The notes: generated from the letters alone by a model not told the origin. 44,412 nucleotides of DNA from Spirochaetota bacterium (GCA_045600925.1 JAZRYV010000122.1:1-44412); one strand, 5' to 3'. Shown: positions 5,312 through 36,415, numbered from the stretch's first letter. Translations and numbers: made by a program.

Positions 5312-8300
5312 TTGTTCAAAGATAAAAGATTTCAGGAAATAACAGGGATAGTTCTCATTCTGGGAGCGATTATCCTTTTCCTTTCAATTTTTACATTCAG
5401 ACTTTCGGACTACAGCCTTTTACAGGCCGGAAGTCCTGTTAGCAACTTAATAGGTCCTCTCGGGGCAGGTTTAAGCCATGCCCTCAGATCCGGTCTTGGT
5501 CTCTCTGCCTATATTATAGCTGCAATGCTGGCCTTTGCAGGATGGACTGTTATCCGTACAGGAGAAACATCAGCACTTCCTGAAAGAATTTTTGCCTTCT
5601 TCTTTCTTGCCATAACATTTTCCGCTCTGGCAGGCATGATATCTCCTGATATTCCTCAGGAAAGCGGCGGATATACAGGCTGTGGAATCGCAGGATTCCT
5701 GACCAGAGCACTGGGGAAAGTGGGAGCATTTCTCATAATCACAATACTTAACATAATGGGACTGATACTCCTGGGAGCTTTTTCCATGACTTCCTTAATA
5801 AACAGAGCTTCCGAAGCTGAAAAGAAAATCAGCGGAAAAGGCATTCAGCCATTTGCCATGATAAAGAACATACCCGGTCTCCTGCTTTCTGCTGTGTCCC
5901 GCAGAAAAACTGATCCTTCAGAAGCTGAACAGGCAGAAACTGATGATATTCCTCTTAATTCCATCTGTCAGGAAGGAGTTAAGGAATCCCAGGCAGCAGA
6001 AACGGTTTATAAAAAAGAAAAACCTGCAAAAAAGAACTATATTCCATGGATCACAAAGGAAAAGGTTCTGGTGGAAGAAAAACGCTTCGGCTTCTTCCGT
6101 ATTGTGGAAAAGGATAAACCTGTATCCGAACCGGCACCTGTCCTGCTTAAGCTGCCGGAACCTGTTCCGGCCTGGGACGCAGGAAGTTTTTCCATATCCA
6201 TGGGAGCTGAAAATCTGCATGGTTCCGCCTTCGCAGATATTTCCCGTACATCTGCAGATTACTCATCTGCTTTCAGCGGTTTTGCATGCGGACCCGGACG
6301 GATTCTGGATCCCATCCCTGCGGAAGCAGACATTTATGACAGCCCGGAAACTGATCAGGATGAAACGGAAAATTTTGCCATGGCTGCAATGGAAAAATTT
6401 GCGGAAAGCGAAGAGCTGGCAGAACAGGTTTCCATGAAAATTCCTGAATACGATACTGTCCTGACTGCAGAGCCGGCTGATGATGCTGTCTTTTCACCTT
6501 CTGCCTGCAGTACAGAAAATTTCTATTTCGAAGAAGAACAGAAAGAGCTGCCGGAAGATGAAGAAGTGATAATCCATTCCAGCAGACTGTCCATGGAAGA
6601 AGATTCCGGTACAGACATGGCTGAAGAATTCAGACCGAACAGAATAATTTCCATTTCTGAGGAGGATGAATCCTGTGAAGAAAAAATCTGTTCCGAAGAA
6701 CCAGTATCTGCAAAAAACAGAAGTTCCTTCAAAACATTTTCTCCTGAAAAAAACTCAGCAGATTCCGGCAAAGAACAGACTGAACATACAGGGAAACAGG
6801 CATCAGCACAGATACACAGAGCTCTGCTCACAGACCATAACAGAGAAGAGGATCCATTTGATGATATAAACACAAAGGATCTGTCCAGACCTGTCACCAT
6901 GTTTTTTGAAAAACTGAATATAGGAAAGTATGATGTGCCTCTGAGTTTTTTCCATATGTCTGTTCCTCCTGACACAGGGAAATGGAAAGAAGAGATGAGC
7001 CGTAATTCCCAGAGACTTGTAAATGCTCTGGCAGAATTCAGGGTGGAAGCAAAGGTTGTGGAAGTTCACAGAGGACCTGTCATCACAAGATACGAAATTA
7101 CTCTGGCACCGGGAACTCCTGTTCAGAGAGTTACAGGGCTTTCCGACAACCTGGCCATGAATCTGGCAGCAGAAACCATCCGCGTCGTGGCTCCTGTTCC
7201 GGGGAAAAGCACTGTTGGCATTGAACTCCCAAACAGAGAAAGAGAAACTGTAACTCTTGGAGATATCCTTAAAAGCAGAAAATACAATGACACTTCCTGC
7301 AGCCTTAAAGTAGGGCTGGGCAAGGATATTTCCGGGAATACTGTTACAATCGACCTGAAAAAACAGCCTCACCTGCTGATTGCAGGAGCAACAGGTTCAG
7401 GAAAATCCGTATGTGTAAACACCATAATATCCAGTCTGATTTACAGATACGATCCAAACTGTGTAAGATTCATTCTTGTGGATCCCAAGATGGTGGAACT
7501 CCAGATGTACAACGGAATACCGCACCTGCTGACACCTGTAATCACTGAACCTGCAGTGACTCCGTCTGTCCTTAAATGGGCCATTTGCGAAATGGAACGG
7601 AGATACAGACTGCTGTCATCCATGAACACAAGGGATATAGAGATATACAATCAGAAGGTAAAGGGAACCGGCGGGGAATCCCTGCCCTACATTGTCATCA
7701 TCATAGACGAACTGGCGGACCTTATGATGGTGGCCTCCAAGGAGATAGAAAACTACATTACCAGGCTTGCCCAGAAGGCAAGAGCCATAGGTATTCATCT
7801 GGTTCTGGCAACCCAGAGGCCATCGGTTGATGTTATCACAGGAGTCATAAAGGCAAATTTCCCTGCACGAATCGCTTTCCAGGTGGCACAGAAGAACGAT
7901 TCACGTACTATTCTGGACAGAAACGGAGCTGAAAAACTTCTGGGACAGGGAGACATGCTGTATCAGTCTCCCACAAAATCTTTTCCTGTCAGAATACAGG
8001 GGGCCTTCATTTCTGAAGAAGAAATATCAGGGATGGTGGAATACCTGGAAAAATACGGAGATCCGGTATACATAGATATTGAACAGGCTCTCTTTGACGC
8101 TACTGAATCTTCCAGAGAAGAGGACGGCTGTGACGATGAACTGTTCCTTGACGCACTGAAGATTGTGGAGGAGACAAGAAAGGCATCGGCCTCCTATCTC
8201 CAGAGAAGGCTGAGCATAGGCTACAACAGGGCCGCCCGTATCATTGAACTTATGGAATCCAGAGGATACATCGGTCCACAGCAGGGCAGCAGACCAAGAG

Positions 8301-8314
8301 AAGTTTATATATAA
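5312..8314 (+). CDS. ftsK: DNA translocase FtsK/SpoIIIE
   Basis: 1000 aa with N-terminal TM helices and a long acidic linker. The motor domain has LIAGATGSGKSV (Walker A) and IIIDELADLM (Walker B). The C-terminal gamma-domain-like segment reads SYLQRRLSIGYNRAARIIE. The TTG start lies 4 nt after GGAGGG. Confidence 0.95.
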   Translation: MFKDKRFQEITGIVLILGAIILFLSIFTFRLSDYSLLQAGSPVSNLIGPLGAGLSHALRSGLGLSAYIIAAMLAFAGWTVIRTGETSALPERIFAFFFLAITFSALAGMISPDIPQESGGYTGCGIAGFLTRALGKVGAFLIITILNIMGLILLGAFSMTSLINRASEAEKKISGKGIQPFAMIKNIPGLLLSAVSRRKTDPSEAEQAETDDIPLNSICQEGVKESQAAETVYKKEKPAKKNYIPWITKEKVLVEEKRFGFFRIVEKDKPVSEPAPVLLKLPEPVPAWDAGSFSISMGAENLHGSAFADISRTSADYSSAFSGFACGPGRILDPIPAEADIYDSPETDQDETENFAMAAMEKFAESEELAEQVSMKIPEYDTVLTAEPADDAVFSPSACSTENFYFEEEQKELPEDEEVIIHSSRLSMEEDSGTDMAEEFRPNRIISISEEDESCEEKICSEEPVSAKNRSSFKTFSPEKNSADSGKEQTEHTGKQASAQIHRALLTDHNREEDPFDDINTKDLSRPVTMFFEKLNIGKYDVPLSFFHMSVPPDTGKWKEEMSRNSQRLVNALAEFRVEAKVVEVHRGPVITRYEITLAPGTPVQRVTGLSDNLAMNLAAETIRVVAPVPGKSTVGIELPNRERETVTLGDILKSRKYNDTSCSLKVGLGKDISGNTVTIDLKKQPHLLIAGATGSGKSVCVNTIISSLIYRYDPNCVRFILVDPKMVELQMYNGIPHLLTPVITEPAVTPSVLKWAICEMERRYRLLSSMNTRDIEIYNQKVKGTGGESLPYIVIIIDELADLMMVASKEIENYITRLAQKARAIGIHLVLATQRPSVDVITGVIKANFPARIAFQVAQKNDSRTILDRNGAEKLLGQGDMLYQSPTKSFPVRIQGAFISEEEISGMVEYLEKYGDPVYIDIEQALFDATESSREEDGCDDELFLDALKIVEETRKASASYLQRRLSIGYNRAARIIELMESRGYIGPQQGSRPREVYI

Positions 8315-8353
8315 AAGTATTGGACAAAAGTCCGCATAAAACACTTTATGAAA

Positions 8354-8379
8354 GTCCCGTCTTACGGGGCTTTTGTTTT
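8354..8379 (+). terminator. Rho-independent terminator after ftsK
   Basis: Hairpin GTCCCGT-CTT-ACGGGGC followed by TTTTGTTTT. Confidence 0.6.
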
Positions 8380-8395
8380 AAATAAGGAGGATATT

Positions 8396-10051
8396 ATGGA
8401 TAACACAGAACTTGCAGAACTTCTTTTCCCGAATATAAAAGAAACACCGGAATACTACGAGAGCCTTTTCCCTCAGAGGAAGCTTCCTGCAGGAGCAAAG
8501 GTCACAAGACTGGGCCCCAGTCCCACAGGATTCATTCATCTGGGAAACCTGTACGGGGCATTTGTGGATGAAAGACTTGCTCATCAGAGCGGAGGCACTT
8601 TTTTTCTGCGTATAGAAGATACGGATGATAAACGGAAGGTTGACGGCGCAGTCGAGATCATCATCAACGCCCTGAGATTTTTCAGTATTAATTTTGACGA
8701 AGGGGCAGGACTCACAGGAGATACCGGTTCCTACGGCCCCTACAGCCAGAGCATGAGAGGAGCCATCTACCAGTGCTATGCAAAACTCATGGTAAAAAAA
8801 GGACAGGCCTACCCATGTTTCCTGACAGAAGATGAAATAACAGAAATACGCAGACAGCAGGAAGAACAGAAGGAAGAAACCGGCATCTACGGGAAATGGG
8901 CAGTATCCAGAAATCTGTCCATGGAAGAAATACGTCAGAATCTGGCTCAGGGGAAACCATATGTAATCCGACTTAAATCGCAGGGCCAGAGAGGAGAAGC
9001 AGGAAAGACCATTACTGTATATGATGCAATCCGCGGTGAACTTTCCATGCCTGAAAATTTTCAGGATGTGGTAATCCTCAAGGCCACAGGCATTCCGACA
9101 TACCATTTCGCCCATGTAATAGATGACCATTTAATGAGAACAACCCATGTTGTACGTGGAGCAGAATGGATCTCCTCTGTTCCGGTTCATGTGGAACTGT
9201 TCGGCATGCTTGGCTTTAAAATGCCTGTCTACTGCCACACTGCCCAGCTCATGAAACTGGATGCAGCAGGAAACAAAAGGAAGCTGTCCAAAAGGGAGGA
9301 TCCTGAACTTTCTTTGGATTATTACCGCAGGGAAGGCTATCATCCTCAGGCTGTAAGAGAATACATGCTGACCATCCTCAATTCCAACTACGAAGAATGG
9401 CGTACAGCAAATCCGGAAGCATCTTCTGATGACTTTCCTTTTTCACTGGAAAAGATGAGCACTTCCGGAGCACTGTTCGATCTGGACAAACTGAACGACA
9501 TCAGCAAGGAAGTGCTGGGAAAAATTCCTGCAGCAGAACTGGCTGATTTTCTTACAGGGTGGGCTGATGAGTTCCGGCCTGAGCTGAAACCGGTTCTGGC
9601 AGACAGAGAATATCTGGAAAAGATTCTGGACATTGGCAGACACGGTGACCGGCCAAGAAAGGATCATATCTGTGCAGACCAGATGTTCACCTTCATAAAA
9701 TATTTCTTTGATGAATACTTTGAAAAACAGCAGCCGGAACCATATCCTGCCAATGTACCTGCAGAGGATATTCCTGCCATACTGAAAGGATACATGGCCA
9801 CATACGATCATACTGACACCCAGGAAGCCTGGTTTGAAAAAATACGTGCTCTTTCCACAGAACTGGGCTATGCTCTGAAGCCTAAAGACTATAAAAAGAA
9901 TCCGGACAAATTCAGGGGACATGTGGGAGATGTAAGCACAGTCATAAGGACAGCCCTTACAGGCCGGAACCAGTCTCCGGATATCTGGGAAATACAGCAG
10001 ATTCTGGGAGAAGAAAAGACCAGAGCAAGAATCCTTAAGGCAGCACAGTAA
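8396..10051 (+). CDS. gltX: Glutamate--tRNA ligase (GluRS-type class I aaRS)
   Basis: Motifs are PSPTGFIHLGN (HIGH), LRIEDTD and KLSKR (KMSKS). I moved the start from ORF-track 8348 to ATG 8396. That ATG is preceded by AGGAGG, and the 8348 extension would read through the ftsK terminator. Confidence 0.85.
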   Translation: MDNTELAELLFPNIKETPEYYESLFPQRKLPAGAKVTRLGPSPTGFIHLGNLYGAFVDERLAHQSGGTFFLRIEDTDDKRKVDGAVEIIINALRFFSINFDEGAGLTGDTGSYGPYSQSMRGAIYQCYAKLMVKKGQAYPCFLTEDEITEIRRQQEEQKEETGIYGKWAVSRNLSMEEIRQNLAQGKPYVIRLKSQGQRGEAGKTITVYDAIRGELSMPENFQDVVILKATGIPTYHFAHVIDDHLMRTTHVVRGAEWISSVPVHVELFGMLGFKMPVYCHTAQLMKLDAAGNKRKLSKREDPELSLDYYRREGYHPQAVREYMLTILNSNYEEWRTANPEASSDDFPFSLEKMSTSGALFDLDKLNDISKEVLGKIPAAELADFLTGWADEFRPELKPVLADREYLEKILDIGRHGDRPRKDHICADQMFTFIKYFFDEYFEKQQPEPYPANVPAEDIPAILKGYMATYDHTDTQEAWFEKIRALSTELGYALKPKDYKKNPDKFRGHVGDVSTVIRTALTGRNQSPDIWEIQQILGEEKTRARILKAAQ

Positions 10052-10057
10052 AACAAA

Positions 10058-10085
10058 GGCCCCGGAACCGGGGCCTTTTTATTTT
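10058..10085. terminator. Bidirectional terminator shared by gltX (+) and the restriction-like operon (-)
   Basis: Perfect palindrome GGCCCCGG-AA-CCGGGGCC. T-runs follow on both strands: TTTTTATTTTT on +, TTTGTTTT on -. Confidence 0.7.
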
Positions 10086-10142
10086 TCAACTAAAAATGGA
10101 ATATCCCTTCCAAAACCTGCTTTGAGCAGCCTTTTAAGCAAC

Positions 10143-13100
10143 TCATTCCATAGGTTTGATTGTGGACTCGATAAAGGCGATTTCTTCGGATGTTAAACCG
10201 TATTTAGCATACAGTTGAGCATCTATTTCGTTAATATCAAAACCGTATTTTTCTTTTGCAACAGAATCAATTTGAGTAATAGATTTCGACCAATCAATGT
10301 CAATAGATTCTTTTGAAAAATCCAATTTTGGTACATACTGGAAGCTGCTTTCCGAAAAAAGAATGCCAGACAATGTAGATAATATTAAAAATCTTGTAAA
10401 CTTAGTTTTATAATAATTACAACAATTATCTGCCTCTATTTTTGTGTCGAAATAACCGATTATCATATATGATTCGGTACAAATTTCATCATTTAGCAGG
10501 ATGTTTGGTGTTGTAATAACTCTATATGATGATGTAAAATCTTTCACCTTGATTTCTCCATTACTTGGTCGTAAAATTCCAATTCTCACTTTGTATGTTT
10601 CTGCAAGATTATTGTTTTTGGTTATTTCATCGGAAGAGACATATCCAACACCTTCACTGTGAAACAGTTTAAAGCATCCGGGGAAAACACTCTTCTTGCC
10701 TCTTGCGTATGTTCTAAACCCAAAAGGTTTTGATGTCAATATCAAACTCTCCATCGTATCTAAAGATTCCCTTGCTTTTTCAAGAATAGAAACCGCTGAA
10801 TTATAACGAATAACTATAGGATACTGATTCAGTTTCCTGTTGATATTTGAAAAGACCCCATTGTTATGATTAAAAAATGCACACTCGCCTACATATTGTT
10901 TATTCCAAACAAAAAACGAAACACCTCCGGCAATATTTACTGAATTTGCAAAACATTCTGTACTATCTGTAAAATCATCAATGCGAGATATATGACCTTC
11001 GTTAATAAATGCGCTACGAAAACTGTTAAATTTACTACTTGAATACCAACTTGCTTTCGTAATCATCGATACATATTGTTTAGTTAGTGCTGTGCCAGTT
11101 AATATGAATTTTTCAAATATGGACGAACCTCCTATCTCATAACCACCGCCGCCTGCGGTATCTTGATACGGCGGATTTCCTACCACAACATCAAAAATCA
11201 CTTTCTCATCTCCTTCGCCGATTTCATCGTAAATAGTAATTTCATTAAACGGCTTGTTCTGTGTCAGGATTGCACAAATTTTTTCAAAGTCTATTTCTTT
11301 TGTGTTTTGACCTGTTTTTTTGCCTTTAGTATATTTCTTCTTTATTTTCAGCAGGTCATAATCGTTAAACTTGTCGGCGATATTTTCTACATTCAAGCCC
11401 AAAATCTCATAAATCATACGGGTAAACTCGTATGTGAGACCGGATGTTGGGATCGTATAAATCGTACCTTTGATTTGGTCAAGGCTATAGCCGAGCCTCT
11501 TGAAACGCTCGAAAACTGCAAGAGCGAATTCTCCGGCTTTTCCTGCAATATCAAGAATCTTATGACCGTTTTTAATTACACCAGTAAATCCTTCATCCGG
11601 CACAAGAGCGACCATCTCATCACAAATCTTCTTTGGGGTGATTACTTCCGATTCACCAAGTTTTCCGAACTTTTGAACAGCAATGGTCGCTCTTTCAAAC
11701 GGGTTGACGGACGTGTCATTAGAAAGCTTGTTGAGGTTGTGAATCTTATAATCAAGCTTTCGCAGGGTAAATTTGTTGATATTATTTTGAATACTTTCCA
11801 GCACCGGTTTGGAAATGCCGATATGCTTTGCGATTCTGGCATTATCCTCTGTTTCTATCATGGAGATAATACCTTCAAGGGAAATAACGGTATCTCTGGT
11901 CAGAAATGCGAAAAACAAAATTCTTGCATAATATGAACGAAACTGCTTTGCAGGATCGTTTTTCTTTTTCTCATCGTTTGTTCCGCCAGCTGTATCTGTT
12001 CCATCGGTTTCATCTCCGGGCTCATGAGTTCCATCACCACCCGCAGCGCCATCGTCACCGACGTCGCCTCCGGTATCCATATCAGTCCCGTCGCCTTCGG
12101 TTGCTTTAATAGTAAGACCGGCTTTTGAGCCAAGTTCGTTTTCTCTTTCAATGGCACGGCGAATAACGGCAATCTTCATAAGCGAAAGATCAACTGGAAT
12201 CTCAAGAGTTTCTTCCGCTACGCCACGTGATTTGGAATACTCACTGACTGCGTTCAGAATATCCGCTGCCTGCACTTCCTCCATTTTATCACTGTTCATA
12301 ACGATAATCGGAGAAATACGCAGTTCCTCTTTCAGCCGTTCTTCCAGTCTGCTGTTCCCGGCATCGTCCACATTGACATTGTAAATCTGTGCTTTCTGTT
12401 CCTGCATGGAGAACATTCTACCGGGCATAAAGTCCACAAGAAGCGTCTGTGGCTTCATATTGTACTTGATTACATTGCCATTATCGTCAATGTACTTTTT
12501 GATATACTGATTCTGCAAACGGAAAATCGCCTGATCGTATTCCTGCGGAGAAGCGGTATCTTTCAAGAAGAGCATCGTATCCCACTCTTCTACTGTGCTG
12601 CCGGTCAGCATACGGTTTACGGTGAGCGTCAGAGTCTTTTTGCCTTCCTCTTCGCAACGATGAATAAAACTTTTGATTTTCTGAGGATAGCCCAATTTTC
12701 TCGGGACATCGAGCCCGGAGATGTTTACGATCTCGTAGTCGTTCAGATTCTTGAACTTATCGGGATTGCTGCGAATCAGCTCTTCCATTGCGTCACAGGA
12801 GGCACAATAAGGCAACACCATAACGATATGGCGGCACATATTACCGTCTTTGATTTTGTTATAGTCAAGAAATCCGAGAAGTTCGTCATCTTCTTTGCTT
12901 CCGTCGATGACTTCAAGCAGATCGAGGACTTCCTGTTCATAGACAAACTTTTTGTGACTGCCGTCATCCGCTCTTTTTACAGATTTCGGTTTTAACAGAG
13001 CTGAAAAGGCAAAGGAAACACCGCTTTCTTTTAACTCTTTCAGACGCCGACGAGAAGATTCATTGGGGTTAAAGGCAAAACGAATCATCTGCGGGAAGCC

Positions 13101-14279
13101 GTAATACGGGTTGTCCCACTCTTTTACGTCATCAGACAAAACATGTGCTTTATCCCATGCTTCCTGATCCTTCACGATGTCGGAGAATTGATAAAATGCG
13201 ATAATATCATCTTTCGTGAATTCGCTTCCCATCAAAATGCGGTAGGGTGTACCGGAAAGATGTAGTCTGACTTTCGGCTTCAAAACCCTTTCGATCTGCT
13301 CGTCAGCTTCCGATGCTTCAACAAAATCATCGTTATCCTTTTTGTGATTCTGTGCTTTGATCTCGTCTTTGCCAAGTTCACGAAGCACCTGTCCATATTT
13401 TTCTGCGCGGGCACCAAAGTGCGTCTCATCCACAATCAAAAGGTCTATTTGATTTTCAAAGACTTCTTTGTGCTTTTCTTTGATTTCACCACCCTGCAAA
13501 TCCTGCAAGGTCAGAAAGATCGCAGCCTTTTTACCACCGGTAACCGTTTCTTTGATGGTATTTTCATTTGCCAGAAGCGCATTCCCGTCAATGAAAACAT
13601 AATCCGCAAACTTTGTATGGCTTTCTACGGTCTTTTTCCATTCTTCTTTTACATCGGCTTTGGCTGAGACAATAGCGACAATGTTGGCGCCCATCTCAAC
13701 TGCACAACACATAGAGGTAAACGATTTGCCAAAGCGCATAACGGCATACATCAAAAGATTTTTTCTGCCTGCTGCAACTGCAGTTTTGAAACGGTCTATG
13801 GTATCTTTTTGATTGGGGCGGGGCTCATAACTTTCTGTTCTTGCATAAGTAAATGTTTCGGCAAGGCGGGTTTCGGCGTTATAGAACTGATATTTGCCGC
13901 CATTTTGCTGATAATCCCGTGTGATATCTTCTATTGCTTCAATAATATCACGTGCAGTTGCTTCTTTGAAAAACTCTTTTGAATAATAAACATCCGTGGG
14001 AATGTCTGTCTGCTGCAACCGGATGCGTTTCTTTTCGCTTTCGAGAAAATAATGTATCGCAAAATCACGGAAGTAAACATCACTGTCAACTTTCGCTATT
14101 TCTTCATATTGTTTTTCCAAATCGGGGAAATACTCTTTCCACTCATTTAAGCGAACGGAAACAGGACGATATGTATCACCAATTTTCAGATAGCTCGGAA
14201 CAGTCCCTGTCGTAAAAGCATAGATATGAGGATCAACTCTGCCAACTATGATATTATCAAGCAATGAGATATCTTTCAT
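10143..14279 (-). CDS. Single-polypeptide restriction-modification-like enzyme: T5orf172/GIY-YIG-like domain + SF2 helicase + gamma-class N6-adenine DNA methyltransferase + C-terminal target-recognition-like region (1378 aa)
   Basis: The ORF track gives 10143..14324. I start at ATG 14279 (MKDISLL), 4 nt after the upstream stop. N-terminus: HIYAFTT..YLKIGDTYRPVSVRLNEW..SKEFF (~14025-14252). Helicase: EPRPNQ, MRFGKS (13722-13739), DETH (13419-13430), LSGTPYR. A D/G/T-rich acidic linker spans 11955-12104. Methyltransferase: EVITPKKICDEMV (motif X), ILDIAGKAGEFA (motif I), VVGNPPYQ (NPPY at 11166-11177). About 340 further residues follow, ending ..YGLTSEEIAFIESTIKPME. Confidence 0.85.
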   Translation of the reverse strand: MKDISLLDNIIVGRVDPHIYAFTTGTVPSYLKIGDTYRPVSVRLNEWKEYFPDLEKQYEEIAKVDSDVYFRDFAIHYFLESEKKRIRLQQTDIPTDVYYSKEFFKEATARDIIEAIEDITRDYQQNGGKYQFYNAETRLAETFTYARTESYEPRPNQKDTIDRFKTAVAAGRKNLLMYAVMRFGKSFTSMCCAVEMGANIVAIVSAKADVKEEWKKTVESHTKFADYVFIDGNALLANENTIKETVTGGKKAAIFLTLQDLQGGEIKEKHKEVFENQIDLLIVDETHFGARAEKYGQVLRELGKDEIKAQNHKKDNDDFVEASEADEQIERVLKPKVRLHLSGTPYRILMGSEFTKDDIIAFYQFSDIVKDQEAWDKAHVLSDDVKEWDNPYYGFPQMIRFAFNPNESSRRRLKELKESGVSFAFSALLKPKSVKRADDGSHKKFVYEQEVLDLLEVIDGSKEDDELLGFLDYNKIKDGNMCRHIVMVLPYCASCDAMEELIRSNPDKFKNLNDYEIVNISGLDVPRKLGYPQKIKSFIHRCEEEGKKTLTLTVNRMLTGSTVEEWDTMLFLKDTASPQEYDQAIFRLQNQYIKKYIDDNGNVIKYNMKPQTLLVDFMPGRMFSMQEQKAQIYNVNVDDAGNSRLEERLKEELRISPIIVMNSDKMEEVQAADILNAVSEYSKSRGVAEETLEIPVDLSLMKIAVIRRAIERENELGSKAGLTIKATEGDGTDMDTGGDVGDDGAAGGDGTHEPGDETDGTDTAGGTNDEKKKNDPAKQFRSYYARILFFAFLTRDTVISLEGIISMIETEDNARIAKHIGISKPVLESIQNNINKFTLRKLDYKIHNLNKLSNDTSVNPFERATIAVQKFGKLGESEVITPKKICDEMVALVPDEGFTGVIKNGHKILDIAGKAGEFALAVFERFKRLGYSLDQIKGTIYTIPTSGLTYEFTRMIYEILGLNVENIADKFNDYDLLKIKKKYTKGKKTGQNTKEIDFEKICAILTQNKPFNEITIYDEIGEGDEKVIFDVVVGNPPYQDTAGGGGYEIGGSSIFEKFILTGTALTKQYVSMITKASWYSSSKFNSFRSAFINEGHISRIDDFTDSTECFANSVNIAGGVSFFVWNKQYVGECAFFNHNNGVFSNINRKLNQYPIVIRYNSAVSILEKARESLDTMESLILTSKPFGFRTYARGKKSVFPGCFKLFHSEGVGYVSSDEITKNNNLAETYKVRIGILRPSNGEIKVKDFTSSYRVITTPNILLNDEICTESYMIIGYFDTKIEADNCCNYYKTKFTRFLILSTLSGILFSESSFQYVPKLDFSKESIDIDWSKSITQIDSVAKEKYGFDINEIDAQLYAKYGLTSEEIAFIESTIKPME

Positions 14280-14283
14280 ATAA

Positions 14284-15276
14284 TCACTTCCTGTTAATTC
14301 TTTTCCTCTTAAGCAGATCAACAAATTTTACTGTTTTATTTTCTTTCCAGTCTTTAATTCTACAGTAAATACCCGTATGAGCATAGGGATCATTTTTAGT
14401 ACACCCTTTGCATGGCTCCTTTTTTGTCTCTGTGTCAAACAGACTAATCTGGTCCGGTTCCTTCTCCTTGCAGCTTTCTGGAACAACAAATTTCAGGCCA
14501 TCCATTTGCCATATATTCCATGATATAATCGTTGCTATCTCTTTGAGATGTTCTTTAATGGGGAATACACCAAACTTGTTTTCGTAATAATCTATAAAAG
14601 TAAACAGCAGATTTTCTCTTGCAAGCAGAACATTATCGCCCTGCCATTCAAAGCCATATATACTTTGAAATGCCCTTTTCACCCAAAAATACCATTCTTG
14701 TTCATCATCTATATTTTCGGAAACAACCCTGAGCTTTCTGTCAAGAAGACCGATCCTGCGTTTAATCTCTATTACTTCACCTGTCACAGCATCATATCTG
14801 CTTACAAGATACGGGGCTTCACCGCAGGTGATTTCAAGACGAGTATCATCAATATAATCCTGCCAGGTTTTCCCCGATGGTGCAGGAAACGGAACTTTTT
14901 CTGCTGATTCAGTCCATGTTTTATCATGTTCAACATTGAACATCCCTTCCGACTCGAACCAGGCGTTATCTACCAAATTATTTTGTGCATTACAAATCCA
15001 CGAAGGAGTAAACACTTCCGCCTTTTTTCGAATACGTTCTGCCTGTTCTTTTTGTGATTTTTCCGTTCTTGGCTTTATAACATTTCCATTATATCCGGTG
15101 ATGCTTTGAATTGTTATTTGATCCTGAAAATGATAGCCAAAACCACGATCTGAGTAATTATCAGTTGCCCAGATTATGTTTTGTTTTGAAGAATGATCTT
15201 GAAGCAGAATAGAAAGAAGCTCTCTGTCAAGCTTGTATATGTAGTTTTCTTTGATATCTATTAAATTCTTAGCCAT
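14284..15276 (-). CDS. Partner protein: truncated gamma-methyltransferase-like fold with a degenerate motif IV and a C-terminal Cys4 cluster. Function unknown.
   Basis: 330 aa. AEVFTPSWICNAQ (motif X-like, 14998-15018). LEITCGEAPYL (resembles TaqI-type motif I LEPACAHGPFL, 14806-14838). IYGFEWQGDNVLLARENL (motif II-like). NIWQMDGL (motif III-like). NDPY sits where NPPY is expected (14383-14394). The protein ends 32 aa later. Cysteines at residues 269/289/292/305 follow C-x19-C-x2-C-x12-C. The stop is 4 nt from the downstream start. Confidence 0.6.
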   Translation of the reverse strand: MAKNLIDIKENYIYKLDRELLSILLQDHSSKQNIIWATDNYSDRGFGYHFQDQITIQSITGYNGNVIKPRTEKSQKEQAERIRKKAEVFTPSWICNAQNNLVDNAWFESEGMFNVEHDKTWTESAEKVPFPAPSGKTWQDYIDDTRLEITCGEAPYLVSRYDAVTGEVIEIKRRIGLLDRKLRVVSENIDDEQEWYFWVKRAFQSIYGFEWQGDNVLLARENLLFTFIDYYENKFGVFPIKEHLKEIATIISWNIWQMDGLKFVVPESCKEKEPDQISLFDTETKKEPCKGCTKNDPYAHTGIYCRIKDWKENKTVKFVDLLKRKRINRK

Positions 15277-15305
15277 ATTTTATTATCTAAAAAGAAAGAC
15301 TTCAT

Positions 15306-15333
15306 AAAAGACCCCGGGAAGCGGGTCCTTTTT
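15306..15333. terminator. GC-rich hairpin with flanking A/T runs (bidirectional terminator or attenuator) just upstream of the restriction-like operon
   Basis: GACCC-(8 nt)-GGGTC, flanked by AAAA upstream and CTTTTTATTT downstream. It lies about 30 nt upstream (minus sense) of ATG 15276. Confidence 0.4.
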
Positions 15334-15469
15334 ATTTCATAATTAGGGTCTGAACAGAACAGCCATTCCTCCATATGGGGGAATAATAAGACCTGGTGTA
15401 GATATGATAATTATTGTCCGCATGGAAATCATTTTCCATCAGATTTTCCATCGTTACTATACCTGTCAT
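15332..15469 (-). CDS. Unlisted 45-aa small ORF (MTGIVTMENLMENDFHADNNYHIYTRSYYSPIWRNGCSVQTLIMK), hypothetical
   Basis: My own translation. The ATG at 15469 is preceded by AAGGAGAG with a 6-nt spacer. The TAA stop at 15332-15334 abuts the hairpin. I recognise no motif. Confidence 0.25.
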   Translation of the reverse strand: MTGIVTMENLMENDFHADNNYHIYTRSYYSPIWRNGCSVQTLIMK

Positions 15470-15609
15470 CCTACTCTCCTTATAACACATATTCAGGCAA
15501 TGTCAAGAAAAGAAAAAGCCTGTATAAGGAATACATAAATGAAGGCTGAATTTTTAAAAATTTCTTTTTTATGAAGTTTCAGACCTCTTAAGTCTGAACA
15601 CCGGCAGAT

Positions 15610-16305
15610 TTATTCCCCGGAGGCACCGGCTCTCTGACGGACCAGAAGCCTTCGCCAGTTTACGAACCCGTAGAGATCATTCATCAGAAATATCACAAAG
15701 CAGAAAATCATTGGAGCATAAACAGGATCTTCTGCTGCAGCCAGAATCCACAGCAGAATAAGAACAGCATCATTGGATGCATAGGCTGCTGCGTAGTAAA
15801 CGGATCTGAGACATACAAAACCTGCACCAAGAAAACTGGTGGCAACAGAGACGGAAGACAGTACAAGATTAGGGGTGTCCAGATACTTCAGCAGAAAATA
15901 AAAAAATACTGTCACAGGAACTGTAAGAAGAAACAGAATAACACATGCCTTTCTGCCCGGAACTGCTATTTCCACCTGATTTTTCTTTTCAGAGGGATGC
16001 CTGAGCCAGATAATGCCGGAGATAACCGCACTGGGAAGGCTCATGAGCAGAAAGGTCGCCATCTCTCCGTAATACCTGTACCGGAAGGAAATCCAGGCAT
16101 ACATAAGACAGAACAGAGCCATGAGGAACTGGCCGGCAGGATTTGCCCGTGCAATAAAAATAAGGGAAGTGGCACCGGTAATCACTGCAGCAAGGGTCAA
16201 AGGATACTGATCCGGCATAAGGAAGAAAACAATAGAAACACCAGTTATGGAAAAAATCCACAGCCCCAGCTCAAAACCGGTAAAGGAAGATAAAAATCCT
16301 TTCAT
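15610..16305 (-). CDS. pnuC: PnuC-like nicotinamide riboside/NMN transporter family protein
   Basis: 231 aa, about 7 hydrophobic segments. Family-like blocks as I recall the consensus: SFRYRYYGEM, YYAAAYASNDAVLILLWI, FLMNDLYGFVNW. Confidence 0.65.
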   Translation of the reverse strand: MKGFLSSFTGFELGLWIFSITGVSIVFFLMPDQYPLTLAAVITGATSLIFIARANPAGQFLMALFCLMYAWISFRYRYYGEMATFLLMSLPSAVISGIIWLRHPSEKKNQVEIAVPGRKACVILFLLTVPVTVFFYFLLKYLDTPNLVLSSVSVATSFLGAGFVCLRSVYYAAAYASNDAVLILLWILAAAEDPVYAPMIFCFVIFLMNDLYGFVNWRRLLVRQRAGASGE

Positions 16306-35836: not shown

Positions 35837-36415
35837 TTAAAAATTATAATAAAAACAATTCTGACTTCCGTCATCTACCGGAATCAGATCATAAGGAGAT
35901 TCCACAGGTCCGCAGAGATCTATGCACTTAAGGTCCACTTTTATGCTGAATTCAAAGCTGCACGGGATTCCGTTTACAGTAAAATTGTAGTAATAAGAAA
36001 CATCATTCCCTGAAAGATTAAACTCAGAAGGATTTTCAATATCAAAATTCCCAGGCATGTTCTTTTTATAGAAGTCCAGGAACTCCCTGAAAGTCTTTTT
36101 TACTTCTCCCGTCCTGCATGGAACATCAATACCTGATATTGCTATATTCTTCTTTAAAAGTTTTTTTTCATGACAGTATTTATCCAGTTCTAAATATGAT
36201 ACATCTTCAAGTGTTCCTCTGAAGACAGGCATACTGACTTCCTTCCCTTTCCGGACATATACTATATTTGAACAGTAAAGTACAATACTGTAAGGGCTGT
36301 TTTTCATCTGACCCACATGCTTTTCTGTAAGTTCTCCTGCTGTTAATGTCTTTTTTTCAGCACCAGAAGCGGCGGCTGCGGCCAGAATCATAAGCACGGC
36401 TGCGATTTTTTTCAT
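35837..36415 (-). CDS. Secreted 192-aa protein; candidate periplasmic immunity protein for the upstream toxin domain
   Basis: Sec-type signal peptide MKKIAAVLMILAAAAASGA|EKK with no lipobox. RBS AAGGAG lies 8 nt upstream, inside the tpsA 3' end. The start overlaps the tpsA ORF by 59 nt. I recognise no family. Confidence 0.55.
   Translation of the reverse strand: MKKIAAVLMILAAAAASGAEKKTLTAGELTEKHVGQMKNSPYSIVLYCSNIVYVRKGKEVSMPVFRGTLEDVSYLELDKYCHEKKLLKKNIAISGIDVPCRTGEVKKTFREFLDFYKKNMPGNFDIENPSEFNLSGNDVSYYYNFTVNGIPCSFEFSIKVDLKCIDLCGPVESPYDLIPVDDGSQNCFYYNF

What the first reader, a model, noticed from the sequence alone, without database searches (positions are those of the whole stretch)
10143..15276. 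Restriction-like two-gene module centred on a T5orf172(GIY-YIG)-helicase-methyltransferase single polypeptide
The 1378-aa product has the domain order nuclease-like head, SF2 ATPase (GKS, DETH, SGTP), gamma-class N6A methyltransferase (motif X, motif I, NPPY) and a long C-terminal recognition-like region. That order matches Type ISP enzymes such as LlaGI/LlaBIII. The head, however, is not an Mrr/PD-(D/E)xK domain. It reads HIYAFTT..YLKIGDTYRPVSVRLNEW..SKEFF, which fits the T5orf172 branch of GIY-YIG. Type ISP enzymes act as single polypeptides, whereas this gene is tightly coupled (4-nt gap) to an upstream 330-aa methyltransferase-like partner. I do not recognise this combination as a named RM or defence type.
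Basis: partly seen in the sequence, partly recalled or inferred. Interest (0 to 1): 0.8.

Follow-up and report, generated by a model that had tools for sequence, protein, structure and literature searches.

The report
Motor-driven restriction enzyme with split methylase
This is a real, widespread but uncharacterised two-gene restriction-modification system. A nuclease-motor-methylase giant is always paired with a small protein that is only the cofactor-binding front half of a DNA methylase, so the methylase appears to be assembled from pieces on two genes.

Summary
Two minus-strand genes, 14284-15276 (330 aa) and 10143-14279 (1378 aa), are separated by 4 nt. The large protein has the domain order T5orf172 head, SF2 ATPase, gamma-class N6-adenine methylase, hypervariable target-recognition domain. 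The T5orf172 call is supported through homologues that pass Pfam PF10544, not by the window protein itself.

The combination is not uncatalogued. REBASE-derived PADLOC models match both proteins end to end, as "Type IIG RE-MTase" and "Type II MTase". The pair occurs in more than 589 species. I found no characterised member.

The partner is not a complete methylase. It carries motifs X and I-III and stops just before the catalytic NPPY strand, and it has no recognition domain.

Relatives show the same six modules in other arrangements:
- The NPPY/recognition module is fused to the partner in a ~670 aa methylase that sits beside a ~1120 aa T5orf172-helicase.
- It is a separate gene in phage PTm1.

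Best reading: a Type ISP-like, ATP-driven restriction enzyme whose methylase is completed in trans by the partner. The main rival is that the large protein is self-sufficient and the partner is an accessory subunit. I class it as a new variant of a known kind, interest about 0.6.

The parts
14284..15276 (-). Partner gene (330 aa), here called N*. It is the N-terminal AdoMet-binding half of a gamma-class N6-adenine methylase, with no motif IV-VIII and no recognition domain.
   Evidence: ORF. PADLOC PDLC03390 matches full length. No Pfam or PDB sequence hit. It aligns to residues 1-320 of ~670-aa methylases, in which FDFVIGNPPYQ plus a recognition domain follows. No [NDS]PP[YFW] motif.
14998..15021 (-). 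Partner motif X (AEVFTPSW, residues 86-93)
   Evidence: Invariant in 17 homologues. It is the only stretch that aligns with the large protein's motif X.
14806..14841 (-). Partner motif I (RLEITCGEAPYL, residues 146-157), strand beta1
   Evidence: Invariant E148, C151, G152, E153, A154, P155, Y156. It corresponds to beta1 (147-150) in the AF2 model of fused homologue P0242. It resembles M.TaqI EPACAHGPFL (my recollection of that sequence).
14608..14661 (-). Partner motif II (IYGFEWQGDNVLLARENL, residues 206-223), with the canonical acidic residue after beta2
   Evidence: Invariant Y207, G208, W211, Q212, G213, D214, N215. beta2 is 207-211 in the P0242 model.
14494..14523 (-). Partner motif III (SWNIWQMDGL, residues 252-261)
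   Evidence: Invariant. beta3 is 256-258 in the P0242 model.
14362..14472 (-). Partner Cys/His cluster (C269, C289-x2-C292, H300, C305), a probable zinc-binding hairpin. The protein ends about 10 residues before the position where beta4/NPPY starts in fused relatives.
   Evidence: Invariant in close homologues. Weak MYND zinc-finger similarity. Not universal in the fused forms or in the 282-aa E. faecium partner.
14280..14283 (-). 4-nt intergenic gap (TTAT) between the partner stop codon and the large-gene ATG
10143..14279 (-). Large gene (1378 aa): T5orf172 head, SF2 ATPase, linker/coupler, methylase N-half (N'), NPPY catalytic half, recognition domain
13905..14240 (-). T5orf172 (GIY-YIG-related) nuclease-like head, residues ~14-125 (HIYAF, KIGDTYRP, RL, H..FLE, EFF)
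   Evidence: Homologous heads pass Pfam PF10544 (P0105). The window copy itself is below the reporting threshold. Nearly invariant across 48 homologues.
12330..13832 (-). SF2 helicase-like ATPase, residues ~150-650 (MRFGKS, DETH, SGTP, QAIFRLQ)
   Evidence: Pfam ResIII. Motif positions. Mean pairwise identity 0.56-0.93 across the family.
11970..12137 (-). Acidic, Gly-rich low-complexity linker, residues ~715-770
   Evidence: Translation. Poorly conserved columns.
11670..11969 (-). Helical 'coupler'-like region, residues 771-870
   Evidence: The AF2 model is all-helical here, pLDDT about 85-95.
11220..11669 (-). N', the large protein's own methylase N-half, residues 871-1020. Motif X is EVITP. 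Motif I is LDIAGKAGEF, with Lys where the first Gly of GxG is expected. Motif II is IYTIPTS, with no acidic residue. Motif III is DYDLL.
   Evidence: (beta1 907-913, beta2 940-944). It co-varies with the helicase (r=0.92) and not with the NPPY core (r=0.30).
10890..11219 (-). C-core, the catalytic half of the methylase (FDVVVGNPPYQ, motifs IV-VIII), residues 1021-1130
   Evidence: Pfam Eco57I. PADLOC PDLC03375 'MTase_II' matches 1024-1377. 32% identical to the C-half of fused methylase P0242. AF2 beta4-beta7.
10356..10889 (-). Hypervariable target-recognition domain, residues ~1131-1308
   Evidence: Mean pairwise identity 0.18-0.41 here, against 0.55-0.9 elsewhere in the protein. The fold matches the recognition-domain parts of CamA and M.TaqI.
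10146..10355 (-). Conserved C-terminal tail (DIDWSKS...LYAKYGLTSEEIAFIESTIKPME), residues 1309-1378
   Evidence: Identity 0.52-0.69. Shared with fused methylases and with the phage C-half gp277.
10055..10078 (.). Bidirectional terminator-like hairpin between the large gene and the convergent gltX

Best explanation
This is an ATP-dependent restriction-modification system that works like a Type ISP enzyme but is built differently.

Shown:
- The large protein carries a T5orf172 nuclease-type head, an SF2 motor, and a CamA/M.TaqI-like adenine methylase with a hypervariable recognition domain.
- The small upstream protein (N*) is the AdoMet-binding front half (motifs X, I-III) of a methylase of the same family. 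It lacks the NPPY half and any recognition domain.
- Across the family the same six modules always occur: N*, head, motor, N', NPPY core, recognition domain. The NPPY/recognition cassette sits either behind N' (as here) or behind N* (670 aa + 1120 aa systems). In a phage it is a separate gene.

Inferred:
- The recognition domain binds a short asymmetric site.
- N* docks onto the NPPY half in trans and supplies AdoMet, and the enzyme methylates one adenine to mark self.
- On unmethylated sites the motor translocates on ATP, and the T5orf172 heads of converging enzymes cut the DNA.
- N', whose AdoMet motifs are degenerate, is a non-catalytic docking or coupling piece of the motor subunit.
For: Restriction-type architecture:
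- Domains and motifs.
- Methylase fold.
- The recognition domain is hypervariable (0.18-0.41 identity) while the head and motor are conserved, the usual signature of specificity turnover.
- Relatives sit on conjugative plasmids and in defence islands beside Hachiman, Gabija-like, retron/SIR2 and GmrSD genes, sometimes with an upstream HTH resembling RM controller (C) proteins.
- PADLOC RM models match full length.

Partner is half a methylase:
-.

Functional link between the two genes:
- The partner is directly upstream in all informative loci out of 80 species-level loci, drawn from more than 589 species.
- A fusion protein joining the two exists (P0269).

N* plus the C-half is a working unit:
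- They are fused in cis in ~670-aa methylases next to a T5orf172-helicase that ends in N' with no NPPY (L057, L081-L089).
- They are separate genes in phage PTm1. gp277 starts MKFDIIVGNPPYQ, gp279 is N*, and no motor is present.

N' looks non-catalytic:
- It is unavoidably an orphan in the 670+1120 architecture.
- It has the same degenerate motifs in all three lineages: K-[S/T/A]-G in motif I and no motif II acid.
- It co-varies with the helicase (r=0.92) and not with the NPPY core (r=0.30).

N* looks like a shared core component:
- It keeps canonical residues and the same invariant positions whether free or fused.
- It is equally similar across the two motor subfamilies (0.62 vs 0.60), while the helicase drops from 0.61 to 0.30.
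Against: - AlphaFold2 of the large protein alone packs N' against the NPPY half as a complete Rossmann fold with high confidence (pLDDT 86, pTM 0.69). A cis N' would normally outcompete a trans N*.
- No coordinates or PAE were available, and no complex could be modelled.
- There are no biochemical or methylome data for any member.
- The only tested analogue with split parts, B. subtilis DnmA-YeeB-YeeC, gave no restriction or phage defence (PMC9973331).
- The window's own head does not reach Pfam significance.
- Motif VI of the motor (QAIFRLQ) lacks the second canonical arginine (sequence).
- In this window the module sits between housekeeping genes, not in a defence island.
Confidence: 0.5

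Rival explanations
1. The large protein is a self-sufficient Type ISP-like enzyme whose own N' plus NPPY half form the active methylase in cis. The partner is a non-catalytic accessory subunit: an AdoMet sensor or allosteric licence for cleavage, an assembly factor, or a DNA-binding or methylation-state-reading subunit.
For: - AF2 builds a complete, confident Rossmann fold from N' plus the C-half.
- N' is strongly conserved within each subfamily.
- Covalent linkage favours cis pairing.
- Type I and Type III enzymes use AdoMet as an allosteric effector (established knowledge).
- The partner has a Cys/His cluster and a conserved charged N-terminal region that could bind DNA.
Against: - N' lacks the motif II carboxylate and has Lys in the glycine loop in all lineages.
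- N' is a certain orphan in the 670+1120 architecture, while N* is the cis partner of the same C-half family there and its only possible partner in phage PTm1.
- N* keeps the same AdoMet-motif invariants whether free or fused.
- This reading requires N* to hold two different jobs in two architectures.
Confidence: 0.3
2. This is a classical Type IIG enzyme plus a separate complete Type II methylase that modifies the second strand, as in Eco57I. That is what the database labels ('MTase_II', 'restriction endonuclease subunit M') imply.
For: PADLOC labels. The NCBI name. An RM-fusion-plus-M gene pair is a known Type IIG arrangement (established knowledge of Eco57I).
Against: - The partner has no motif IV-VIII and no recognition domain, and it ends before beta4.
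- It is nearly constant (55-82% identity) while the recognition domain of its neighbour is hypervariable, so it cannot carry a matching specificity.
- The large protein has an SF2 motor, which classical Type IIG enzymes lack.
Confidence: 0.03
3. The module is a decayed or domesticated relic. It would be an orphan methylase used for gene regulation, with an inactive motor-nuclease, as proposed for B. subtilis DnmA-YeeB-YeeC.
For: - PMC9973331 found no restriction or defence for the split analogue.
- In this window the module lies between gltX and pnuC, outside a defence island.
- Several MAG loci have interrupted large genes.
Against: - Both window ORFs are intact and all motifs are present.
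- Head and motor are under strong purifying selection across hundreds of species.
- The recognition domain is diversifying.
- V. crassostreae DnmA-YeeB mutants did change phage sensitivity, as reported in PMC9973331.
Confidence: 0.07
4. Half-domain exchange switch. The single NPPY/recognition module alternates between the two N-halves. Paired with N* (AdoMet-competent) it methylates. Paired with N' (AdoMet-incompetent, wired to the motor) it reports an unmodified site and licenses translocation and cutting.
For: - Two N-halves per C-half in every architecture.
- The C-half is found covalently behind either N-half.
- There are low-confidence linkers on the N-terminal side of the NPPY strand in both models.
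- N* and N' differ in their AdoMet motifs.
Against: Exchanging half of a Rossmann sheet is energetically demanding and has no precedent that I know of. There is no direct evidence for it. A static hetero-complex explains the same data.
Confidence: 0.1

Closest known systems
Type ISP restriction-modification enzymes (LlaGI, LlaBIII)
   Same: Same domain order on one chain: nuclease, SF2 motor, coupler, gamma-class adenine methylase, recognition domain. The predicted methylase fold finds LlaGI among its Foldseek matches (5ffj). Probably shares an asymmetric site, one-strand methylation and cleavage by translocation and collision (inferred).
   Different: The head is T5orf172/GIY-YIG-type, not Mrr PD-(D/E)xK. 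There is an obligatory second gene encoding half a methylase. A family profile finds no LlaGI/LlaBIII chain in the PDB by sequence. The NPPY/recognition cassette can reside on the other gene.
DnmA (YeeA)-YeeB-YeeC of B. subtilis and V. crassostreae (MmeI-like methylase + SF2 helicase + T5orf172 protein)
   Same: The same three activities (adenine methylase with recognition domain, SF2 helicase, T5orf172/GIY-YIG) in one conserved operon. Morgan et al. 2009 proposed it as a Type I-like system with single-strand modification.
   Different: There the three parts are separate proteins and the methylase is a complete MmeI-type enzyme. Here the nuclease and motor (and, in the window, the methylase too) are fused, and there is an extra half-methylase. 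Homology of the motors was not tested.
Type IIG enzymes of the Eco57I/BpuSI/MmeI kind (the label the REBASE-derived HMMs give)
   Same: Nuclease and gamma-class methylase plus recognition domain on one polypeptide. Pfam Eco57I domain. BpuSI and MmeI are structural matches. PADLOC 'REase_MTase_IIG' matches full length.
   Different: Classical IIG enzymes have a PD-(D/E)xK head and no motor, and where they have a companion it is a complete methylase. This protein has about 500 aa of SF2 ATPase, and its companion is half a methylase.
Type III RM (Mod + Res), compared with the 670+1120 aa architecture of relatives
   Same: A methylase/recognition subunit plus a helicase-nuclease subunit. Probably one-strand methylation of asymmetric sites.
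   Different: Type III Mod is beta-class and Res carries a C-terminal PD-(D/E)xK nuclease (established knowledge). Here the methylase is gamma-class and CamA/TaqI-like, the nuclease is an N-terminal T5orf172 domain, and the Res-like protein ends in a degenerate methylase half.
Naturally split C5-cytosine methylases M.AquI and M.EcoHK31I (two polypeptides forming one methylase)
   Same: Precedent that one DNA methylase fold can be encoded as two polypeptides that assemble. Both are cited as natural heterodimeric methylases in PMC3404938 and PMC2836561. The details are my own knowledge.
   Different: Those are C5-cytosine enzymes with no motor or nuclease, no second competing half, and no evidence of the catalytic half moving between genes.
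MANTIS (Gao_RL) and BREX: methylases that need partner proteins to act
   Same: CamA/PglX-like adenine methylases for asymmetric sites whose activity depends on other subunits, coupled to a helicase-nuclease effector (MANTIS preprint 10.64898/2026.09.23.753747). BrxX is a top structural match.
   Different: Different proteins: DUF499 AAA+ ATPase, PLD nuclease, four or more genes. Neither window protein hits any PADLOC model other than the RM models at E<=0.1. NCBIfam PglX similarity is only 24 bits.

Membership tests
Type ISP RM (LlaGI/LlaBIII) | Domain order on one polypeptide: nuclease, SF2 helicase-like ATPase, coupler, gamma N6A-methylase, recognition domain | tested here: met
Type ISP RM (LlaGI/LlaBIII) | Mrr-family PD-(D/E)xK nuclease head | tested here: not met
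   The head belongs to T5orf172 (PF10544) by homologues. No Mrr or PD-(D/E)xK hit.
Type ISP RM (LlaGI/LlaBIII) | Acts as a single polypeptide with no other subunit | tested here: not met
   The partner gene is invariably adjacent in genomes and is sometimes fused. Biochemical dependence was not tested.
Type ISP RM (LlaGI/LlaBIII) | Detectable sequence homology to LlaGI/LlaBIII | tested here: not met
   A profile of 49 family members finds no PDB chain at E<=1. There is only fold-level similarity of the methylase part (5ffj at rank 42).
Type ISP RM (LlaGI/LlaBIII) | One-strand m6A at an asymmetric site; ATP-driven translocation; cleavage on head-to-head collision | not testable with these tools
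   Needs a methylome and biochemistry.
Type IIG RM (REBASE sense) | Restriction and modification domains in one polypeptide, matched by a REBASE-derived family model | tested here: met
   PADLOC PDLC03626 REase_MTase_IIG, 1373 bits, full length.
Type IIG RM (REBASE sense) | Cleaves at a fixed short distance from the site without an NTP-driven motor | tested here: inconclusive
   An intact-looking SF2 ATPase (GKS, DETH, SGTP) argues against this. Activity was not measured.
T5orf172 / GIY-YIG-related nuclease domain | Match to Pfam PF10544 above the gathering score | tested here: inconclusive
   The window head gives no hit at E<=10. The homologous head of P0110 (55% identical full-length protein) scores 33.4 bits against a 20-bit cut-off. 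Three of five second-subfamily heads score 22-33 bits, one scores 15 bits and one gives no hit.
T5orf172 / GIY-YIG-related nuclease domain | Conserved core residues: Tyr strand, K-I/V-G-x-T, Arg, and the Glu of the E-W/F-F motif | tested here: met
   HIYAF, KIGDTYRP..RL and EFF are nearly invariant in 48 homologues. Catalytic competence is inferred only.
Gamma-class N6-adenine DNA methylase (partner protein) | Motifs X and I-III (AdoMet-binding half) | tested here: met
Gamma-class N6-adenine DNA methylase (partner protein) | Catalytic motif IV (N/D/S)PP(Y/F/W), motifs V-VIII, and a target-recognition domain | tested here: not met
   No such motif is present. The protein ends about 10 residues before the beta4 position of fused relatives.
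Gamma-class N6-adenine DNA methylase (large protein, residues 871-1378) | Complete Rossmann fold with NPPY and a TaqI/CamA-like recognition domain | tested here: met
   AF2 pLDDT 86. Foldseek finds CamA at E about 3e-11, plus BrxX, BpuSI and M.TaqI.
Gamma-class N6-adenine DNA methylase (large protein, residues 871-1378) | Canonical AdoMet contacts: glycine loop in motif I and an acidic residue after beta2 | tested here: not met
   Motif I is LDIAGKAGEF (Lys in the loop) and motif II is IYTIPTS (no acid). The same holds in the second subfamily and in the 1120-aa proteins.
DnmA-YeeB-YeeC type system | Three separate genes: a complete MmeI-like methylase, an SF2 helicase, a T5orf172 protein | tested here: not met
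   Here there are two genes with fused parts plus a half-methylase. The description of the family comes from PMC9973331 and PMC2731913.

The most novel reading that the evidence does not exclude
The family is a modular 'three-piece' methylase-motor machine. A single catalytic/recognition cassette (NPPY half plus recognition domain) is freely exchanged by recombination and can be plugged behind either of two different AdoMet-half domains. In the holoenzyme the cassette pairs with the free, AdoMet-competent half (the partner) to methylate. It pairs with, or is sensed by, the degenerate half wired to the motor to license restriction. If so, the self/non-self decision would be made by which half-domain completes the methylase fold. 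At minimum, the window encodes a naturally trans-split N6-adenine methylase inside a motor-nuclease, which to my knowledge has not been described.
Probability: 0.12. Interest if true: 0.85.

Novelty: new variant of a known kind. Interest (0 to 1): 0.6.

Why it matters
The family is common in gut and rumen bacteria. It was found in more than 589 species across Clostridia, Bacteroidales, Treponema, Eggerthellaceae, Opitutales and others. It is also carried on Enterococcus faecium conjugative plasmids and in phages. Yet annotation pipelines file it as an ordinary 'Type IIG enzyme + Type II methylase', and I found no characterised member.

If the partner really supplies the cofactor-binding half in trans, three things follow:
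- Database calls of a stand-alone 'methylase' for thousands of these genes are wrong.
- Methylome-to-gene assignments for these genomes need both genes.
- The system offers a natural example of how a motor-nuclease is coupled to a methylase through exchangeable half-domains, and of how specificity cassettes that include part of the catalytic fold are swapped.

It would also be the first ATP-driven RM enzyme shown to cut with a T5orf172 nuclease.

Tried and rejected
- Pfam on the window's isolated N-terminal 150 aa at E<=10 gave nothing. The T5orf172 call therefore rests on homologues.
- NCBIfam gave only sub-threshold BREX PglX similarity (24 bits against a 500-bit cut-off). BREX membership rejected.
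- PDB sequence searches found nothing meaningful, using single sequences and profiles for both proteins.
- I first read the partner's SWNIWQMDGL as a degenerate NPPY. I rejected this once fused relatives showed a true NPPY about 75 residues further on, and the AF2 model placed SWNIW on beta3.
- Profile-profile comparison of the partner against the large protein aligns only motif X (probability 2.6%). N* and N' are too diverged to call them recent duplicates.
- Phase variation or shufflon control: no homopolymers or short tandem repeats in 10001-15700, and no room for silent cassettes downstream.
- MANTIS/Gao_RL, DISARM and Hma: no PADLOC hits other than the RM models. MANTIS uses PLD and DUF499 proteins.
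The host was not identified.
- I could not model the partner/large-protein complex.

Full report
OBSERVATION

Two minus-strand ORFs occupy 10143-14324 and 14284-15276. From its ATG the large gene is 10143-14279 (1378 aa).

The motifs are at the stated places:
- HIYAF 18, KIGDT 32
- GKS 184, DETH 284, SGTP 342
- EVITP 878, ILDIAGKAGEF 908, NPPY 1035

G+C falls to 0.34-0.39 at 10-12 kb and 14-16 kb, against about 0.44-0.47 in the flanks. The neighbours are housekeeping genes: FtsK and GltX on one side, PnuC and CcmF on the other. A bidirectional terminator-like hairpin lies at 10055-10078.

THE LARGE PROTEIN

Pfam finds ResIII (151-346) and the Eco57I methylase domain (978-1110). An AlphaFold2 model of residues 771-1378 (pLDDT 86.1, pTM 0.69) contains, in order:
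- a helical region;
- a Rossmann fold, with beta1 at 907-913, beta2 at 940-944 and the NPPY strand at 1029-1034;
- a beta-rich C-terminal domain.

Its best PDB matches are CamA, BrxX/PglX, BpuSI, M.BseCI and M.TaqI. These are gamma-class N6-adenine methylases with a TaqI-like recognition domain.

The head gives no Pfam hit in the window protein itself. It is nearly invariant across homologues. The homologous head of P0110 passes PF10544 T5orf172 at 33.4 bits against a cut-off of 20. Three of five heads of a second, more canonical subfamily (LIYIF..LKIGEAT..EWF) score 22-33 bits. P0105 carries a precomputed PF10544 hit. The T5orf172 assignment is therefore supported by transitive homology.

T5orf172 proteins that act as nucleases are known from the ICP1/PLE conflict (papers listed). 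Catalysis by this head is inferred, not shown.

CATALOGUED OR NOT

PADLOC's REBASE-derived models cover both proteins end to end:
- PDLC03626 'REase_MTase_IIG' scores 1373 bits (3-1377 of the protein against 8-1359 of 1359).
- PDLC03390 'MTase_II' scores 429 bits.

NCBI calls the partner 'restriction endonuclease subunit M' and relatives of the large protein 'Eco57I restriction-modification methylase domain-containing protein'. Morgan et al. 2009 and Smith et al. 2012 had already pointed to uncharacterised MmeI/Type ISP relatives with helicase domains and GIY-YIG nucleases. I found no paper characterising a member. No PDB chain matches by sequence, even with family profiles.

DISTRIBUTION AND LINKAGE

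The large protein has more than 5,700 homologues and the partner at least 8,000. They come from Clostridia, Bacteroidales, Treponema, Eggerthellaceae, Opitutales, Gastranaerophilales, Oxalobacter and others, mostly gut or rumen organisms.

In every one of the 80 retained loci with enough downstream sequence, a T5orf172-SF2 gene follows the partner within a few bases. Forty-one loci are complete copies of the window's architecture. Starting instead from homologues of the large protein, a 325-328 aa Pfam-less gene always sits immediately upstream.

The systems occur:
- on E. faecium conjugative plasmids, next to a GmrSD-like gene;
- beside Hachiman, Gabija-like genes and an RVT_1 reverse-transcriptase gene with a SIR2 gene;
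- in some loci behind a small HTH gene of the kind that acts as a controller in RM systems.

WHAT THE PARTNER IS

The partner is very conserved, 67-82% identical among the top 120 clusters. Its invariant blocks are:
- AEVFTPSW (motif X);
- R.EI.CGEAPYL (motif I, which resembles my recollection of M.TaqI EPACAHGPFL);
- YG..WQGDN.LLARENL (motif II, with the canonical acidic residue);
- SWN.WQMDGL (motif III);
- a Cys/His cluster.

It has no [NDS]PP[YFW] motif.

An exhaustive profile search found 2,230 clusters at 50% identity, many of them 650-710 aa long. In these longer proteins the partner-like region is followed directly by FDFVIGNPPYQ, motifs V-VIII, a recognition domain, and the same C-terminal tail as the window's large protein. 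The C-half of P0242 is 32% identical to large-protein residues 1022-1378 (E = 2e-48).

The AF2 model of P0242 (pLDDT 83.4) places beta1-beta3 at 147-150, 207-211 and 256-258 in the partner-like part, and beta4/NPPY at 329-336. Its top structural matches are again CamA, BrxX and M.TaqI.

The 330-aa partner is therefore the AdoMet-binding front half of such a methylase. It ends about ten residues before the catalytic strand.

THREE ARRANGEMENTS OF THE SAME SIX MODULES

(A) The window type: N* as one gene, then head-motor-coupler-N'-C, where C is the NPPY core plus the recognition domain.

(B) N*-C as a ~670-aa methylase, followed with overlapping stop and start codons by a ~1120-aa head-motor-coupler-N' protein. 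That protein ends just where NPPY would begin. Examples are L057, L081 and L082-L089. PADLOC has no model for the 1120-aa protein.

(C) Phage PTm1: a stand-alone C-half (gp277, starting MKFDIIVGNPPYQ), an HTH gene, and a stand-alone N* (gp279), with no motor.

Two further variants were seen. A B. longum plasmid has arrangement B with IS256 inserted between N* and C. P0269 fuses N* to the head-motor. In second-subfamily A-type proteins the cassette still begins '...MKFDA(I/V)VGNPPYQ'.

WHICH HALF COMPLETES THE FOLD

N' has the same peculiar motifs in both A subfamilies and in B: K-[S/T/A]-G in place of the glycine loop, and no acidic residue after beta2. N* has canonical residues and the same invariant positions whether free or fused.

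Across 42 A-type systems:
- head, motor and N' co-vary tightly (r = 0.91-0.96);
- C-core and recognition domain co-vary with each other (r = 0.73);
- N' hardly tracks C-core (r = 0.30);
- N* is as similar to the window's copy in the distant motor subfamily (0.60) as in the near one (0.62), whereas the helicase falls from 0.61 to 0.30.

Within the window's subfamily, identity collapses right after the NPPY strand. It drops to 0.18-0.41 across 1052-1308 and recovers in the tail.

Because N' is necessarily an orphan in arrangement B, and N* is the only possible partner of C in B and in the phage, the economical reading is that N* plus C is the methylase in all arrangements. N' would then be a non-catalytic coupling piece of the motor subunit.

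Against this, AF2 of the large protein alone confidently packs N' against C, and a cis half should outcompete a trans one. I could not model the complex. I therefore give trans-completion about 0.5 and the 'self-sufficient enzyme plus accessory partner' rival about 0.3.

MECHANISM (INFERRED)

The steps are recognition of an asymmetric site by the variable domain, one-strand m6A as the self mark, ATP-driven translocation from unmodified sites, and cleavage by T5orf172 heads, probably on collision as in Type ISP enzymes.

Caveats:
- Motor motif VI (QAIFRLQ) is non-canonical.
- The only tested split analogue, B. subtilis DnmA-YeeB-YeeC, showed no defence, although Vibrio homologues did.

COMPARISON AND VERDICT

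The system works like a Type ISP enzyme but fails three membership tests for that family: the Mrr head, the single polypeptide, and sequence homology. Databases label it Type IIG, but it has a motor and a half-methylase companion. Arrangement B resembles Type III in subunit logic only.

I rate it a new variant of a known kind. The T5orf172 head alone is a modest novelty that the literature had already hinted at. The half-methylase partner and the mobile catalytic/recognition cassette are, as far as I could find, undescribed.

Noticed in passing
L091 (Tenacibaculum phage PTm1) 4564-5598, 5792-5992, 5989-6996: A jumbo phage encodes a stand-alone NPPY/recognition half (gp277, starts MKFDIIVGNPPYQ), a small HTH gene and a stand-alone N* half (gp279). 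There is no helicase-nuclease. This looks like a naturally split methylase, presumably used for anti-restriction.
   Followed up: partly
L093-L095 11293-14040; L098 10064-12811; L099 6461-9208: A 915-aa Pfam-less gene recurs immediately downstream of window-type large genes in several loci. It may be an extra component or a neighbouring defence gene. It is absent from the window, where gltX follows a terminator.
   Followed up: no
L098 4765-4974; L090 6699-6902; L091 5792-5992: A small HTH gene lies just upstream of the partner in a subset of systems (Pfam HTH_26 in L098/L099, HTH_3 in the phage), like RM controller (C) proteins. None is present in the window.
   Followed up: partly
L092 (B. 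longum plasmid) 6932-13747: An IS256 transposase is inserted between the N* half and the NPPY half of what was a fused 670-aa methylase, followed by the 1113-aa helicase gene. Cases like this may be the source of the stand-alone 'MTase_II' C-half model in PADLOC (PDLC03375).
   Followed up: partly
L005-L008, L018, L028, L056, L064 (large gene downstream of the partner): Several MAG loci have the large ORF interrupted while the partner is intact. These could be pseudogenes, assembly errors or on/off variants. No repeat tracts that could drive phase variation exist in the window copy.
   Followed up: partly
window 15310-15520: A 45-codon ORF and a terminator-like hairpin (15310-15327, GACCCCGGGAAGCGGGTC + T-run) end only about 35 nt before the partner's ATG. 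That leaves very little room for a promoter, so how the operon is transcribed is unclear.
   Followed up: no
window 11970-12137 (large-protein residues ~715-770): An acidic, Gly/Asp/Thr-rich low-complexity linker sits between the motor and the helical region. Its length and sequence vary among homologues.
   Followed up: no
window 36357-42764: A 2135-aa two-partner-secretion / filamentous-haemagglutinin-type protein (Pfam TPS and Fil_haemagg_2), possibly a contact-dependent inhibition toxin. It is unrelated to the finding.
   Followed up: no
P0269 (1125 aa) and P0296 (933 aa): Two rearranged family members. P0269 has N* fused in frame to a truncated T5orf172 head and the helicase. P0296 has N* fused to the coupler-N'-NPPY-recognition part, with the head and motor deleted.
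   Followed up: partly
L081 2893-6997; L082 13910-16007; L096 7397-10706; L090 12122-13366: Relatives sit in defence islands: OLD-TOPRIM + UvrD (Gabija-like), HTH + reverse transcriptase + SIR2, HamA + helicase (Hachiman), and a GmrSD_N protein. Resolvase or integrase genes often flank them. The window copy, in contrast, lies between housekeeping genes.
   Followed up: partly
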